Source of the DNA: a virus
Lineage: Duplodnaviria; Caudoviricetes
IMG/VR virus record: IMGVR_UViG_3300036803_000075
Location: 1-64,000 of that record
Direction: 5' to 3' (one strand)
DNA length: 64,000 bases
The position numbers and the translations under genes were made by a program. A model generated the notes under the pieces. It did no database searches, was not told where the DNA came from, and saw nothing but the letters and a program-made list of their open reading frames with translations. Positions 38,499-52,007 of the stretch are shown in pieces. Within the stretch, counting starts at the first letter, position 1. The number at the start of each line of letters is the position of its first letter.

Positions 38499-38629
38499 TC
38501 CGCTGAGGACAGGTGCTGCAGGAGATGCATTAGGCCGCTCTGCCACGACCAACCCCACAGGGCTGGCGGAGGGATTCGAACCCTCGATTCCTGTTGAAAG
38601 AAGTAACCCGCGTGCGACGCTTCAGCGGA
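38499..38629 (-). ncRNA. YrlA-like Y RNA
   Basis: Ro stem, GGUUACUUC, and permuted tRNA domain (T arm, looped acceptor, D arm). Confidence 0.8.
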
Positions 38630-38657
38630 AGCAAAACTATGGAGTTATCAAGTTGGA

Positions 38658-38789
38658 CGGAGCTGAGTACCAATCGAGAAAGGTAACGTAGCGTGCGGCC
38701 ATTACACTACAGACCGAAGTCCGCTGGGATTCGAACCCAGACTGCCCTTTTATCAGAAGGAAGTAACCCATCTCTGCGCTTCAGCACCG
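38658..38789 (-). ncRNA. YrlA-like Y RNA
   Basis: Ro stem; T arm CUGGG-UUCGAAU-CCCAG; UUCG-capped acceptor; D arm UAGUGUAAUGG. Confidence 0.8.
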
Positions 38790-38811
38790 AAGCTATGGAG
38801 TTGTTGTGGTT

Positions 38812-38946
38812 GTCGCTGAGAACCAAGTCGATCTAGGACTTGAGCCTGCTGCTCTACCAATTGAGCTACACCCCGAAGGGTGACCGGACTTGAACCGGCA
38901 ACACGCAGATTAGGTTAGAAGTAACCCAGATCTCCGCATCAGCGAC
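38812..38946 (-). ncRNA. YrlA-like Y RNA
   Basis: Ro stem; T arm; CACCC-UUCG-GGGUG acceptor; D arm UAGCUCAAUUGGUAGAGC. Confidence 0.82.
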
Positions 38947-39012
38947 GAAGTCTTACTCCTGGCGACGAGTAACCCATGGGCATCGTTCATTACTTAGTCG
39001 CCAGGAAATTGG

Positions 39013-39146
39013 TGCTGCTGAGTACAGGTTGACCAGCGGTTGGACCCGGTGCACCGGAGGACCGGGTGGTGGGTATCTCGACCCACCCTTGCGTAAGAGC
39101 CCTGGGGCTCTGGTGAGAAGTAACCGATGACCGCGCTTCAGCAGCG
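39013..39146 (-). ncRNA. Y-RNA-like ncRNA with non-tRNA three-hairpin effector domain
   Basis: Same terminal stem and GGUUACUUC; three internal hairpins replace the T/acceptor/D arms. Confidence 0.7.
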
Positions 39147-39161
39147 TTCATGCTTTGGGGT

Positions 39162-39300
39162 TGATGCCGAGAACCAAACGATGCAGGTACGTACGCGCGC
39201 TACCAATTGCGCCATCGCCCGAAGGAGCCGGGCGACCTGGACTCGAACCAGGAACCTCGTCATCCGATATGAAGTATCCCGCAAACACACATCGGCATCA
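39162..39300 (-). ncRNA. YrlA-like Y RNA
   Basis: UGAUGCCGA/UCGGCAUCA stem; T arm CCUGG-UUCGAGU-CCAGG; looped acceptor; D arm GGCGCAAUUGGUAGCGC. Confidence 0.82.
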
Positions 39301-40710: not shown

Positions 40711-40817
40711 AGTACGGATACAGGCCCCGAGCGTCGCAATCGCGCTCGGGGCCTGGCTATGAGTTAGCATCTGACTCAGCCTCGGGACGGAAACCATTCC
40801 CCCGGTCTCGGGGTCAT

Positions 40818-40886
40818 AGGGGAGCCTTCGGCAAGGCGGCTGGTCTCCAACACCGGCCGGAGAGGGTTCGACACCTTCCTCCTCTG
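40818..40886 (+). tRNA. tRNA-Trp(CCA) with atypical D arm
   Basis: Acceptor AGGGGAG/CTCCTCT; anticodon loop CTCCAAC; T loop TTCGACA. Confidence 0.7.
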
Positions 40887-40889
40887 CTT

Positions 40890-49415: not shown

Positions 49416-49970
49416 TTGACTGCTATCTTCGACTCCGAAAACCCGCAGTGGCGGCCGATCTACGACGGTCTTAAGAAGGCCGGTCTCGAATTCGATCGTC
49501 TTTTCAGCTGGGACACACTGAAAGCCATCGCAGGATACGACATCCGGCTGAATCGCAGTGCCTTCTACGCGGCAGTAAAGCAGCTGGAAGAGCACGACAA
49601 GCGTACGTTGGTCAGTGTGTGGGGCAAGGGATATCGCGTGGCTCCAGCGCCCGAGCATCATAAGCTCGGGCTCAAGCACCAGCTCAAGGCCAAGCGTGCC
49701 GTACGGCGCGGCGCGCGCAAGGTCAAGGCGGCTGACACGTCTCATCTCACTGCCGAGCAGATCCACGCCAACGAGCAGCTGATCTTCCGACTCCATCGTC
49801 ACGAAACTCAGCTGATCAACCACGAGACCCGGATCAGCGCACTGGAGAGGGAGACTGGGAAAACTCGCCGTGAGCTGGACGAGTTGAACAAGCAGTCTGA
49901 GCTGGCACGCCGGCTCAAGGCGCTGGGTATCAATGTCCCCAAGAGTGCCCCTGACACCGTCGAGGGGTAA
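49416..49970 (+). CDS. winged-helix plus coiled-coil accessory protein
   Basis: TTG start with AAGGAGG RBS right after the RAMP gene; LVSVWGKGYRV wing motif; C-terminal coiled coil. Confidence 0.7.
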   Translation: MTAIFDSENPQWRPIYDGLKKAGLEFDRLFSWDTLKAIAGYDIRLNRSAFYAAVKQLEEHDKRTLVSVWGKGYRVAPAPEHHKLGLKHQLKAKRAVRRGARKVKAADTSHLTAEQIHANEQLIFRLHRHETQLINHETRISALERETGKTRRELDELNKQSELARRLKALGINVPKSAPDTVEG

Positions 49971-51470
49971 CAGGGCCTGGCCTGGCCGGGTGAGGCGGGA
50001 CGAGGCTAGGTGAGGCGAGGTTCGGCAACGTCGGGCCGGGTAGGGCGAGACTGGGCGCGGCGAGGTCAGGCTGGGTTGGACAAGGAAGCACAAAATGGGT
50101 GACTGGCAGTCTCCGAGGTTCGAGGCCTCGGCACCCACGCTCCTTTCGGGAGTCAAGACGGGGCAGGGCGCGGTGAGGTGTGGCCTGGTGGGGTGAGGCT
50201 TGGCGTGGTGAGGCTTGGGATTTTAAAATGGACGACCGGCAGCCACTAGGGTTCAAGGCCCTAGCGTTCACGCTCACTACGGTGAGTTGAGGCCCGGTTT
50301 GGTACGGCAAGGCGTGACAGGGCATGGCTCGGCCCGGCGAGGTCCGGCGCGGCAGGGCGCGGCATGATTGGGCGCCGTATGCCATGGCAAGGTGAGGCAT
50401 GGCAAGGAATTACAGAGCGAGCGGCACACTTCCGGGTTCGAGTCCTGGACGCTCGCGGCCGTCCTCGGGCGGCTCGTGGCAAGCCTAGGTTGGGTTTGGC
50501 ATGGCAATGTTAGGTAGGGCTCGGCTTGGTCCGGTGCGGCAAAGCGCGGTTAGGTTTGGCATGGCAACAAACTGGGTGAGCGGCACACTCTTCGGTCCGA
50601 GTCCGAAGCACCCACGGCTACTCCGGTAGCTCGTGGCTTGGTGCGGCGCGGCAGCGCATGGTTGGGCCTGGCATGGCAGGGAATTTACTGAGCGGATGGT
50701 CGTACGGGAGGTTCGACTCCTCTTGCGTTCACGCCCTCTTTGGGGGTCAGGGCACGGCTAGGCTGGGCGCGGTAGGGCTGGGTACGATTCGGTCTGGCGG
50801 GGCAAGGCTTGGGATATACCAGTGCGAATGGCATACCTCTCGGTTCGAGTCTGAGACGCTCACGCTCTCTTCGAGAGTCAGGGCAGGGCGACGCCAGGCA
50901 TGGTTAAGTTGGGTGCGGCTGGACGCGGTGCGGCAAGGTTTGACTTGACGTGGCAAGGCGAGGCAGAGCTGGGTCAGGCAGGGCAGCAACAACACTGTGT
51001 CGACGGTCTTCGAGAGGGTTCGACTCCCTCTGACACGCGCTCTCTTCGAGAGTCAGGGCGGGGCTAGGCAGGGCAACGTATGGCCCGGCGCGGTAAGGCT
51101 TGGCTAGGTTGGGTTGGGTCCGGTGGAGTGTGGCTAGGTATGGAGTGCCGACGGTCTGCGAGGAGGTTCGACTCCTTCTGGCACACGCTCTCTTCGGAGA
51201 GGCGGGGCTAGGTGCGGCGTGGCTTGGTGGGGCACGGTGCGGTCAGGCCGGGCATGACAAGGATCAAAAATCTGGACGAGCAGCACACTTCTGGGTGCGA
51301 GTCCCAGACGCCCACGCTCACTCCAGTGAGTACGTGGCCAGGCGTGGCATGGTAGGGCACGGTCCGGCTGGGTCGGGCGCGGTAGGGCTAGGCACTGGGC
51401 ATGGTTTGGTACGCCTAGGTGAGATGTGGCATGGCTTGGTATGGCAGGGATCTGTTAAAATCCCTGCCAT
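49971..51470 (+). repeat. GGY-NN pentamer / mini-tRNA array, right arm (10 tracts, 9 mini-tRNAs); putative guide-RNA array
   Basis: Tracts of 22, 12, 23, 18, 9, 12, 21, 17, 12 and 22 pentamers separated by ~41-nt acceptor+T-arm mimics and short hairpins; ends in an ATGGCAGGGA/TCCCTGCCAT hairpin. Confidence 0.9.
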
Positions 51471-51819
51471 GAGCACCTGAAGAGATCGAAAGCCAGCGCT
51501 GTCCGTCACCAAGGACGATTGTGAATGGCAGTATTTTCGAGCCGGCGGCCCTGGCGGTCAGCATCAAAACAAGACCTCGTCCGGGGCTCGGGTGATCCAC
51601 CATCCGTCCGGCGCCCGTGGCGAGTCCCGGGAGGAGCGCAGTCAGCTCCAAAACCGTAAGGCTGCCTGGCGCCGGATGGTGGCCGATCCGAAGTTCAAGA
51701 TCTGGATCAACACCCAGCTTTATGGTCTCGAGCTGGCGGAATCCAAGGTCGCCAGGGACATGGCGGAGAAGAACATCCGGGTCGAAGTCAAGAAAGACGG
51801 GAAATGGATATGCCAGTAG
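51469..51819 (+). CDS. class I release-factor-like (GGQ, ArfB/PrfH-like) peptidyl-tRNA hydrolase with in-frame UGA at codon 4
   Basis: ATG AGC ACC TGA, then in-frame ...FRAGGPGGQHQNKTSSGARVIHHPSG...ERSQLQNR. Confidence 0.75.
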
Positions 51820-52007
51820 AAGTGCAAGGCTGCCGAACCGAAGACGACCCCGAGGGGATGTTGCACTTCAAGGATGGCAATGACCCCAACTTGTATGCGT
51901 ACTGTGGCGTTCGGGTCCAAATCATGACCAGCAATTGGCTTCTAGCCAATTGCTGTCCTATTTGCGAGGCGAAACGTCTTACGGTCTATAAGGAGCAGAA
52001 GATCTAG
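51804..52007 (+). CDS. small Cys-rich protein
   Basis: ORF overlapping the end of the RF-like gene. Confidence 0.45.
   Translation: MDMPVEVQGCRTEDDPEGMLHFKDGNDPNLYAYCGVRVQIMTSNWLLANCCPICEAKRLTVYKEQKI

What the first reader, a model, noticed from the sequence alone, without database searches (positions are those of the whole stretch)
51452..51819. Release-factor-like (GGQ) gene that appears to need UGA readthrough at codon 4
Seen: TGT-TAAAAT-N7-ATG at 51469, a leaderless layout like that of the NUDIX gene (TAGACT-N7-ATG). The frame reads ATG AGC ACC TGA AGA GAT ... and continues into FRAGGPGGQHQNKT. No in-frame ATG, GTG or TTG lies between the TGA and the GGQ, only a CTG without a clear RBS. 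Established: RF2 autoregulates through an early internal UGA. Inference: this factor is made only when UGA termination is inefficient, making it a termination-stress sensor. The alternative is a recent pseudogene.
Basis: partly seen in the sequence, partly recalled or inferred. Interest (0 to 1): 0.75.

Follow-up and report, generated by a model that had tools for sequence, protein, structure and literature searches.

The report
UGA-gated phage release-factor-like gene
A soil phage gene for a small release-factor-like (GGQ) protein begins with a three-codon mini reading frame that ends in a UGA stop, and about two dozen diverged relatives keep the same layout, so the stop looks like a built-in expression gate and not damage.

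Summary
ATG 51469, two sense codons and TGA 51478-51480 lie in frame with a 112-codon RF-1/GGQ-domain ORF that ends at TAG 51817-51819. No ATG, GTG or TTG lies between the TGA and the GGQ motif.

It is not a pseudogene. Of 80 distinct homologues, 24 share the layout, including the window's two closest relatives:
- The early stop is always TGA, after 3-5 codons counting the start.
- The next codon is always AGA, AGG, GGA or GGG.
- A TANNNT box lies 6-8 nt before the start in 18 of 22 (leaderless layout), against 4 of 56 normal homologues.
- dN/dS downstream is 0.03-0.26.
- Every length change around the stop is a whole number of codons.
- These ORFs end in TAG or TAA in 19 of 21 cases, although neighbouring genes mostly end in TGA.

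Best reading: a programmed UGA gate, most likely read through by a near-cognate tRNA. It would tie synthesis of the factor to how well the host's RF2 terminates. The recoding mechanism and the sensor role are inferred.

The phage tRNA-Trp is not required. I found no paper describing this. This scan has noted UGA-gated RF1-type phage factors on other DNA; that is the same theme in a different protein family.

The parts
51443..51468 (+). Inverted repeat GGCAGGGAT / ATCCCTGCC with an 8-nt loop. It closes the upstream GGNNN/tRNA-like array and ends 1 nt before the ATG.
   Evidence: Read directly from the sequence. The function was not tested.
51456..51461 (+). -10-like hexamer TAAAAT, preceded by TG-T and lying 7 nt before the ATG. 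This is the leaderless-promoter layout.
   Evidence: The same TANNNT-N6-8-start layout occurs in 18 of 22 early-TGA homologues against 4 of 56 normal ones. It also occurs at other genes of this phage. The sigma-70 two-hexamer scan found nothing here.
51469..51477 (+). Mini reading frame ATG AGC ACC (Met-Ser-Thr). It is homologous to the Met-Ser/Thr start of normal homologues.
51478..51480 (+). In-frame TGA at codon 4, the proposed recoding site (gate).
   Evidence: It is TGA in all 24 early-stop homologues and changes 0 times on the tree.
51481..51486 (+). Conserved 3' context AGA GAT. The first codon after the stop is always RGR.
   Evidence: The counts are AGA 9, AGG 1, GGA 10, GGG 2. Elsewhere in the same ORFs AGR makes up 9% of Arg codons and GGR 28% of Gly codons. 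TGA AGA GAT is identical in the window, L128 and L129.
51481..51819 (+). RF-1/GGQ-domain ORF of 112 codons plus the TAG stop. GGQ is at 51553-51561.
   Evidence: Pfam PF00472 at 66.3 bits; phrog_3122. It is 46-58% identical to mycobacteriophage 'RF-1 peptide chain release factor' genes. In PDB only the GGQ domain of RF1, RF2, PrfH and C12orf65 matches.
51817..51819 (+). True terminator TAG, which is read by RF1.
   Evidence: Early-TGA ORFs end in TAG 10, TAA 9 and TGA 2. Flanking ORFs end in TGA 41, TAG 23 and TAA 9.

Best explanation
The gene is a functional phage gene for a stand-alone GGQ (peptidyl-tRNA hydrolase) factor, and a programmed UGA at codon 4 gates its translation.

Proposed sequence of events:
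1. The transcript probably starts at, or is processed to, the A of the ATG, so the mRNA is leaderless. A 70S ribosome starts there and makes Met-Ser-Thr.
2. The ribosome then meets UGA followed by AGA-G.
3. RF2 is the only factor that reads UGA. If it acts first, only a tripeptide is made.
4. If a near-cognate tRNA (most likely host Trp-tRNA CCA) decodes UGA first, the ribosome continues in the same frame and makes the 115-residue factor.
5. That ORF then terminates at an RF1-readable TAG.

Output would therefore rise when RF2 capacity is low relative to demand. The factor would then release peptides from stalled ribosomes.

Shown: the conserved architecture, the coding continuity across the stop, the UGA specificity, the 3' RGR context and the purifying selection.
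Inferred: the leaderless 5' end, readthrough as the recoding event, the identity of the inserted residue, and the RF2-sensing or feedback role.
For: 1. Recurrence. 24 of 80 distinct homologues have a start, 2-4 further sense codons, TGA and an in-frame continuation with no ATG, GTG or TTG before the conserved (I)LSVT. No homologue lacks both a start and such a mini-frame.
2. The window forms a well-supported clade (SH-aLRT 97) with L128 and L129. All three carry TGA AGA GAT although their synonymous sites are saturated.
3. dN/dS is 0.03-0.26 in the nine of fourteen pairs where dS could be estimated. dS was saturated in the other five, including all pairs with the window.
4. On the tree the early stop never changes (0 changes, always TGA). 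The terminal stop changes at least 7 times. The mini-frame length changes at least 5 times and the UGA-to-GGQ distance at least 9 times, always by whole codons. The stretch right after the stop is therefore read in that frame.
5. The codon after TGA is RGR in 22 of 22, against 9% and 28% background use.
6. TANNNT lies 6-8 nt before the start in 18 of 22, against 4 of 56 normal homologues. In L128 the ATG starts 1 nt after the 3' end of a tRNA-Met gene.
7. The true terminators avoid TGA: 2 of 21, one of them a TGA-TAG tandem. Flanking ORFs use TGA in 41 of 73 (Fisher p 1.3e-4). Normal homologues in GC-rich loci use it in 17 of 28 (p 3e-4).
8. TGA is an ordinary stop in this phage. It ends 39 of 101 long ORFs, and 88% of the genome is coding under table 11. 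No UCA suppressor tRNA is present.
9. Precedents exist for release-factor genes gated by their own stop codon: the prfB frameshift, which is absent from all 2,658 Actinomycetota genomes surveyed (PMC12421855), and Mimivirus R726, which needs UGA readthrough plus a frameshift (PMC3521657).
Against: - There is no experimental or expression evidence. The 5' end, the readthrough and the inserted residue are all unobserved.
- No shared stimulatory RNA structure was found. Only the GxEPGA subgroup has a conserved hairpin 8 nt after the UGA. The window's 5' region folds no better than shuffled sequence.
- From general knowledge of E. coli, a purine at +4 is not the weakest UGA context. The RGR motif may therefore act in another way.
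- The statistics on terminal stops and on RGR use related sequences. The independent-pairs test had only 2 usable pairs.
- A single origin of the trait is not rejected (AU p 0.088).
- The protein has no codon-recognition domain, so direct self-termination at its own UGA, as in prfB, is not established.
- The host is inferred to be Actinomycetota only from 61.7% GC content and distant (about 30%) similarity of phage genes.
Confidence: 0.6

Rival explanations
1. Termination followed by in-frame resumption. RF2 releases the tripeptide at UGA, the ribosome is not recycled, and it resumes elongation at the next codon (AGA or GGA) without an initiator tRNA. The factor would then start at Arg or Gly, and the gate would sense ribosome recycling (RRF) and not RF2.
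For: - It explains the strict in-frame relation and the lack of any start codon.
- It could give the invariant RGR codon, and the SD-like purine tract right after the stop, a role in holding the post-termination ribosome. Anti-SD pairing peaks there at a mean of -5.6 kcal/mol against a background of -2.0.
- E. coli ribosomes without RRF are reported to restart from the codon next to the stop, in frame (PMC9955659).
Against: - The effect is described for RRF-deficient conditions, not as a natural expression route.
- It should work with any stop codon. Yet the early stop is TGA 24 times out of 24 and never drifts to TAA, while the terminal stops switch freely.
- It does not explain why the true terminators avoid TGA.
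- The SD-like pairing is weak in the window itself (-2.9 kcal/mol).
Confidence: 0.15
2. The mini-frame is an independent leaderless upstream ORF, for example one that loads ribosomes or blocks Rho. The factor would then be started separately at a non-canonical codon such as the conserved CTG or ATC of (I)LSVT, or at another near-cognate codon.
For: - A CTG or ATC lies at the I-L position in most members.
- A purine-rich tract lies 5-13 nt upstream of it in some members, for example L013 and GAAAG-N6-CTG in the window.
- From general knowledge, leaderless short ORFs are common in mycobacteria.
Against: - The stretch between the UGA and the CTG changes length at least 9 times, always by whole codons.
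- That stretch keeps the R-x-R / D-R-K-P residues of the normal N-termini, with synonymous variation.
- 24 of 24 mini-frames are in frame with the main ORF, where 1 in 3 is expected for an unrelated upstream ORF.
- L188 has no CTG or ATC at that position.
- In the GxEPGA subgroup the purine tract is more than 20 nt from the CTG, and the CTG lies inside a hairpin.
Confidence: 0.1
3. It is a decaying pseudogene or a sequencing error in this one phage.
For: A stop at codon 4 with no restart codon is what a fresh nonsense or insertion mutation would look like. The closest homologue from IMG/VR, L004, has a plain ATG AGT GAT CGC AAG.
Against: - The same layout is present in 24 distinct sequences from independent samples.
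- Their ORFs are intact and dN/dS is 0.03-0.26 with saturated dS.
- The nucleotide context is conserved.
Confidence: 0.02
4. UGA is a sense codon here, either through genome-wide code change (Trp or Gly) or as selenocysteine.
For: UGA is the codon reassigned in several bacterial and phage codes. The phage carries a tRNA-Trp. A weak tRNA-Sec-like Rfam hit lies 450 nt upstream (26 bits).
Against: - TGA ends 39 of 101 long ORFs of this phage and 41 of 73 ORFs flanking the relatives.
- There is no UCA tRNA in the 107.7-kb genome.
- No SECIS-like hairpin is shared across the group.
- The position is a variable N-terminal residue with no catalytic role.
- The tRNA-Sec hit is one of the tRNA-like array separators, and it scores below the gathering threshold.
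Confidence: 0.03

Closest known systems
prfB (RF2) autoregulatory programmed +1 frameshift (SD-like element, CUU UGA C; PMC12421855)
   Same: It is a termination-related factor whose own ORF is interrupted early by a UGA, the codon that only RF2 reads. Synthesis therefore depends on the outcome at that stop. The premature stop is strictly UGA in both.
   Different: - Here the downstream ORF is in the same frame, so no frameshift is needed.
- There is no CUU slippery codon and no SD upstream of the stop.
- The conserved element lies 3' of the stop (RGR).
- The stop is at codon 4-6 of a leaderless message, not at codon 26.
- The product has only the GGQ domain and cannot itself read UGA by the known mechanism.
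- prfB frameshifting is absent from Actinomycetota, the likely host phylum.
Mimivirus R726 / Megavirus mg280 class-I release factor genes (UGA readthrough plus frameshift; Jeudy et al. 2012, PMC3521657)
   Same: It is a virus-encoded release-factor homologue whose translation needs passage through a conserved in-frame UGA. The true terminator is a different, stronger stop.
   Different: Those are eRF1-type full-length factors of eukaryotic giant viruses. They need two recoding events, and the stop is in a UGA-C context. Here the protein is a bacterial-type GGQ-only factor of about 112 aa in phages. There is a single UGA followed by RGR, right behind a leaderless start.
Mycobacteriophage 'RF-1 domain peptide chain release factor' genes (phrog_3122; e.g. 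Colt gp201, prophi86-1 gp136, WXIN)
   Same: They belong to the same protein family (46-58% identity over the full length, same size). The genes often lie in or beside tRNA clusters.
   Different: All those inspected start with a normal ATG or GTG (M-S/T-R/K-E...) and have no early stop. Their function is untested.
ArfB (YaeJ) / ICT1 / C12orf65 (mtRF-R) codon-independent GGQ rescue factors
   Same: They are small stand-alone GGQ-domain proteins without codon-recognition domains. C12orf65 gives the longest PDB alignment (residues 4-100).
   Different: The match to the ArfB model is below its cut-off and covers only residues 5-40. The C-terminus shows no obvious basic tail of the kind ArfB inserts into the empty mRNA channel. 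How this protein is recruited to ribosomes is unknown.
UGA-gated shortened RF1-type release factors of large phages, noted earlier in this scan (e1-6002253, e1-5732686, e1-5892624 and others)
   Same: They are phage termination-factor genes that keep one in-frame UGA across many relatives, and they too are read as an expression gate.
   Different: They belong to a different protein family: RF1-type factors with recognition domains, with the UGA deep in the ORF at a Trp position. Here the protein is a GGQ-only factor with the UGA at codon 4-6 of a leaderless mini-frame. I did not re-examine those loci.

Membership tests
RF-1 / GGQ peptidyl-tRNA hydrolase domain (Pfam PF00472) | Score above the Pfam gathering threshold | tested here: met
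   66.3 bits against a cut-off of 35; residues 7-70 match profile positions 5-69.
RF-1 / GGQ peptidyl-tRNA hydrolase domain (Pfam PF00472) | Catalytic Gly-Gly-Gln motif | tested here: met
   GGPGGQHQNK at residues 22-31. G25, G26 and Q27 are invariant in alignments A1 and A2.
Class I release factor (RF1/RF2) | Codon-recognition domains 2 and 4 with the PxT or SPF motif; length about 350 aa | tested here: not met
   The protein is only 112 aa. The prfA, prfB and prfH models match only residues 7-67 and score far below their cut-offs. PDB matches are confined to domain 3.
ArfB (YaeJ)-type rescue factor | C-terminal basic tail or helix that probes the empty mRNA channel; equivalog score | tested here: not met
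   NF006718 scores 37.9 bits against a cut-off of 100 and aligns only residues 5-40. The C-terminus ...ARDMAEKNIRVEVKKDGKWICQ is predicted as a helix plus a beta-hairpin (low confidence).
prfB-type autoregulatory recoding site | Early in-frame RF2-specific UGA | tested here: met
   TGA at codon 4. It is TGA in 24 of 24 relatives with the layout.
prfB-type autoregulatory recoding site | +1 frameshift on CUU U with an SD-like element upstream of the stop | tested here: not met
   The downstream ORF is in the zero frame. The codon before the stop is not conserved (ACC, ATA, GTA, GAA, AAC and others). The purine tract lies 3' of the stop.
Programmed stop-codon readthrough | Conserved in-frame stop with protein-coding constraint on the downstream side and no alternative start | tested here: met
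   dN/dS is 0.03-0.26. All indels are whole codons. No ATG, GTG or TTG lies before the conserved core.
Programmed stop-codon readthrough | Conserved 3' context or stimulatory RNA structure | tested here: inconclusive
   The RGR codon is invariant. A conserved hairpin 8 nt after the UGA is present only in the GxEPGA subgroup, with one compensatory pair. No structure is shared with the window, and folding z-scores are about 0.
Programmed stop-codon readthrough | An amino acid is inserted at the stop, giving a full-length product | not testable with these tools
   This needs a reporter assay or mass spectrometry.
Selenoprotein gene (UGA plus bacterial SECIS) | SECIS hairpin at a fixed distance 3' of the UGA | tested here: not met
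   There is no hairpin common to the early-TGA genes, and the window's first 24 nt are predicted to be unpaired.
Leaderless actinobacterial mRNA | TANNNT -10 box 6-8 nt before an ATG or GTG that has no SD | tested here: met
   TAAAAT-N7-ATG in the window. The layout is present in 18 of 22 early-TGA homologues, against a frequency of 0.7% at random positions in this genome. The 5' end itself has not been mapped.

The most novel reading that the evidence does not exclude
The early UGA is a sensor of RF2 capacity. In hosts that lack prfB frameshift autoregulation and end most genes in UGA, the phage would make its GGQ factor only when RF2 is saturated or disabled. The factor would then free ribosomes waiting at UGA or otherwise stalled. 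This would be a phage-borne feedback loop on host translation termination. It would have been built at least once, and possibly several times, by inserting two or three codons containing TGA behind a leaderless start.
Probability: 0.35. Interest if true: 0.85.

Novelty: new variant of a known kind. Interest (0 to 1): 0.78.

Why it matters
If the gate works as proposed, it is a new natural form of stop-codon-based control of a termination or rescue factor. It would consist of an in-frame UGA at codon 4-6 of a leaderless message with a simple conserved 3' motif (UGA-RGR).

Three consequences follow:
- It would give a compact, testable readthrough or termination-sensing element for Actinobacteria, where the classical prfB frameshift does not exist.
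- It would show that phages monitor or buffer host termination capacity.
- It would explain why gene callers miss or truncate these genes. None of the 24 has a canonical start for the main ORF.

Earlier notes in this scan reported UGA-gated RF1-type phage factors. Taken together, the two cases suggest that gating termination-related genes with UGA is a recurrent phage strategy.

Tried and rejected
- Near-identical DNA in cultured phages: none found. By protein, no cultured phage exceeds 60% identity, and all best hits have annotated normal CDSs.
- Phage tRNA-Trp as the decoder: it is present in the window, in L013's phage and in L008's. It is absent from the complete 65-kb relative of L007 and from L012's contig. 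The window's tRNA-Trp has an odd D-arm, but pair 11-24 reads C-G by my own reading of the ARAGORN drawing, so it is not a Hirsh-type A24.
- Suppressor tRNA (UCA): none.
- Genome-wide TGA reassignment: rejected from stop codon usage.
- Frameshift or bypass: the other two frames hold no upstream start and close quickly. Bypassing would skip conserved residues.
- Shared RNA structure: not found outside one subgroup.
- SD-like pairing after the stop: a real trend, but weak in the window.
- Phylogenetically independent test of the link between early TGA and a non-TGA terminator: underpowered, with 2 pairs.
- Multiple origins: suggested by the tree (at least 2 changes forced by well-supported branches), but a single clade is not rejected (AU p 0.088).
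- AlphaFold model from 9 sequences: mean pLDDT 69, too weak to justify a fold search.
- Literature searches: no description of this gene layout.
Full report
**What is in the window**

TG-T-TAAAAT (hexamer at 51456-51461) is followed by 7 nt and then ATG 51469. The frame reads ATG AGC ACC TGA (51478-51480) AGA GAT CGA AAG CCA GCG CTG TCC GTC ACC. It runs on without a break to TAG 51817-51819.

The 112 codons after the TGA match the RF-1/GGQ domain (PF00472, 66.3 bits against a cut-off of 35). They also match the phage family phrog_3122 (E 1.9e-34). GGQ lies at 51553-51561.

No ATG, GTG or TTG lies between the TGA and the GGQ. The other two frames offer no entry point. The -10-like hexamer sits in the loop of a 9-bp inverted repeat (51443-51468). 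That repeat closes the upstream array of GGNNN repeats and tRNA-like pieces.

**The genome**

The genome is a single 107,724-bp virus record with 61.7% GC. A baseplate protein is about 30% identical to those of Mycobacterium and Rhodococcus myoviruses. The host is therefore probably an actinobacterium, but this is an inference.

TGA is an ordinary stop in this phage. It ends 39 of 101 long ORFs, and 88% of the genome is coding under table 11. ARAGORN finds five tRNAs, and none has a UCA anticodon.

**The protein family**

tblastn finds the family in 248 cultured-phage records, 205 of them mycobacteriophages annotated 'RF-1 peptide chain release factor'. The three I opened (WXIN, prophi86-1, Colt) encode 112-120 aa proteins that start normally: M-(S)-K/R-E-L/R-x-LSVT. 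The window's post-TGA protein aligns with them from its first residue.

At the DNA level the window's ATG AGC looks like their Met-Ser start. The window appears to have two or three extra codons (ACC TGA, perhaps also AGA) inserted behind it.

Only the GGQ domain matches solved structures: RF1/RF2 domain 3, PrfH and C12orf65. The ArfB model is matched below its cut-off and only over residues 5-40. The protein is therefore a stand-alone GGQ factor. It is neither a class I release factor nor a demonstrable ArfB.

**The key comparative result**

I scanned IMG/VR, one genome per prokaryote species, and JGI metagenomes. The scans gave 80 distinct homologues with a readable 5' end.

- 56 have a normal start, usually with an SD.
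- 24 have the window's layout: ATG or GTG, 2-4 further sense codons, TGA, then an in-frame continuation with no canonical start before the conserved (I)LSVT.
- No sequence lacked both a start and such a mini-frame.

The two closest relatives of the window both carry the layout:
- L128, 70% identical: ATG AGA AAT TGA AGA GAT.
- L129, 71% identical: GTG AGT AAG TCT TGA AGA GAT.

A second large group also has it. One subgroup of that group reads ATG ANN NNN TGA GGR NCT GAG CCA GGG.

**Evidence that the layout is selected**

- *Purifying selection.* dN/dS behind the stop is 0.03-0.26 in the nine of fourteen pairs where dS could be estimated. dS was saturated in the other five, including all pairs with the window.
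- *The early stop is fixed.* On a maximum-likelihood tree the early stop never changes (always TGA). In the same rows the terminal stop changes at least 7 times.
- *Whole-codon length changes.* The mini-frame length changes at least 5 times and the UGA-to-GGQ distance at least 9 times, always by whole codons. The stretch right behind the stop also keeps the R-x-R / D-R-K-P residues of normal N-termini, with synonymous variation. That stretch is therefore translated in this frame, so translation must enter at or before the codon after the UGA.
- *Conserved 3' codon.* The codon after TGA is AGA (9), AGG (1), GGA (10) or GGG (2), never another Arg or Gly codon. Elsewhere in these ORFs AGR is 9% of Arg codons and GGR 28% of Gly codons.
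- *Leaderless layout.* A TANNNT box lies 6-8 nt before the mini-frame start in 18 of 22, against 4 of 56 normal homologues and 0.7% of random positions. In L128 the ATG begins 1 nt after the 3' end of a tRNA-Met gene, so tRNA processing would also leave a 5'-terminal AUG. L129 has an SD instead.
- *Terminators avoid TGA.* These ORFs end in TAG (10) or TAA (9) and only twice in TGA, once as a TGA-TAG tandem. ORFs flanking them end in TGA 41 times out of 73 (Fisher p 1.3e-4). Normal homologues in GC-rich loci end in TGA 17 times out of 28 (p 3e-4). Normal homologues nested among the early-TGA ones mostly end in TGA.

The sequences are related, so these p-values overstate independence. A paired phylogenetic test had only two usable pairs.

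**Origins of the trait**

The window clade (SH-aLRT 97), L188 and the large clade are separated by normal-start homologues. Parsimony needs 6 changes, and well-supported branches force at least 2. An AU test does not reject a single clade for all 24 (p 0.088). The trait therefore arose either more than once, or once with several losses. Either way it has been kept over long divergence, and it can be lost without loss of the gene.

**Mechanism**

The pseudogene reading is excluded. So are a code change and selenocysteine: TGA is used normally, there is no suppressor tRNA, and there is no shared SECIS-like hairpin. A frameshift is not needed, and bypassing would skip conserved residues.

A separate start at the conserved CTG or ATC is unlikely. 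The stretch upstream of it behaves as coding sequence. L188 also lacks such a codon at that position.

Two mechanisms remain.

- *Readthrough of UGA by a near-cognate tRNA.* I rate this the more likely (about 0.6). It explains the strict use of UGA and the avoidance of UGA as the real terminator.
- *Release at UGA followed by in-frame resumption from the next codon by an unrecycled ribosome.* I rate this at about 0.15. The behaviour is reported for E. coli without RRF (PMC9955659). It would give the invariant RGR codon and the SD-like purine tract a role. Mean anti-SD pairing there is -5.6 kcal/mol against a background of -2.0, but only -2.9 in the window.

A conserved hairpin starting 8 nt after the UGA exists only in the GxEPGA subgroup, with one compensatory pair. 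The window and its group show no structure better than shuffled sequence.

The phage tRNA-Trp is not a consistent partner. It is absent from a complete 65-kb relative whose only ARAGORN-confirmed tRNA is tRNA-Met(CAT).

**Function (inferred)**

RF2 is the only factor that reads UGA. A UGA gate therefore makes output depend inversely on RF2 activity at that codon. Ending the ORF in TAG or TAA lets RF1 terminate it under the same conditions.

This logic parallels the prfB frameshift. That frameshift is absent from all 2,658 Actinomycetota genomes surveyed, and those genomes have very high UGA usage (PMC12421855). It also parallels the Mimivirus R726 release-factor gene, which needs UGA readthrough plus a frameshift (PMC3521657).

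What the GGQ factor does on the ribosome is unknown. Whether it acts back on its own gate is also unknown.

**Relation to earlier notes of this scan**

Other agents reported UGA-gated, shortened RF1-type release factors in large phages on other DNA. That is the same theme in a different protein family, with the UGA at a different place in the ORF. I did not re-examine those loci.

Notes on this genome read the upstream array as a VIPR-type guide array with tRNA-like separators. I saw the array but did not test that reading.

I found no paper describing the layout reported here.

**Verdict**

The pseudogene alternative is refuted. The 'made only when UGA termination fails' idea is supported indirectly but not shown.

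This is a new variant of stop-codon-gated control of a termination-related gene. It is of clear interest to people who study recoding, leaderless translation and phage-host translation conflicts.

Noticed in passing
window 49970-51468 (+): An array of about 9 units. Runs of 5-nt-period GGNNN repeats alternate with a conserved tRNA-like piece: a canonical T-arm such as GAGGGTTCGACTCCCTC, then ACGCTC and a small hairpin. GC skew is +0.2. ARAGORN finds no tRNA there, and Rfam gives only a weak tRNA-Sec hit at 50958-51038. Earlier notes of this scan read it as a VIPR-type guide-RNA array with tRNA-like separators. The RF-like gene starts 1 nt after the array's last hairpin.
   Followed up: partly
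window 38560-39221 (-): tRNA-like halves (D-arm and T-arm pieces) are separated by inserts of about 90 nt that share the motifs GGTTCTCAG...GCTGAAGCG...GGGTTACTTC. ARAGORN with introns allowed strings them into a false 'tRNA-Val with a 570-nt intron'. Earlier notes call them Y-RNA-like elements next to a Ro60 gene.
   Followed up: no
window 40816-40887 (+): The phage tRNA-Trp(CCA) is atypical. It is 72 nt long, has a short D-loop without the usual GG, and is drawn with a 6-bp anticodon stem.
   Followed up: partly
window 51804-52007 (+): A 67-codon Cys-rich ORF (C-x..-C, CCPIC) overlaps the end of the RF-like gene by 16 nt. It has no Pfam or NCBIfam match. A 12-bp terminator-like hairpin with a T-rich tail (51929-51955) lies inside it. 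Either the small ORF is not real or the hairpin is not a terminator.
   Followed up: no
L128:534-608, L129:416-489, L006:4460-4534, L013:1707-1780: A tRNA-Met(CAT) gene lies next to the early-TGA RF-like gene in several relatives. In L128 it ends 1 nt before the mini-frame ATG. It is the only ARAGORN-confirmed tRNA of the complete 65-kb phage holding L007 (Rfam gave two tRNA matches in that record). I did not establish whether these are initiator, elongator or Ile2-type tRNAs.
   Followed up: partly
L011, L008, L012, L015, L143, L144, L148, L151, L152, L157, L176 (alignment A3, columns 24-54): In one subgroup the N-terminal extension G-x-E-P-G-A is nearly fixed at the nucleotide level (GAG CCA GGG GCG, using rare codons). 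It pairs with the codons for R-I-L-S and forms a hairpin that starts 8 nt after the UGA. This is the classic spacing of recoding stimulators.
   Followed up: partly
L178:1429-1704: A normal-start homologue reads ATG AAC ACT GAA GGC AAG. It contains the same CTGAAGG string as the early-TGA genes, but shifted by one base so that the TGA is out of frame. It may be a derivative that lost the gate.
   Followed up: no
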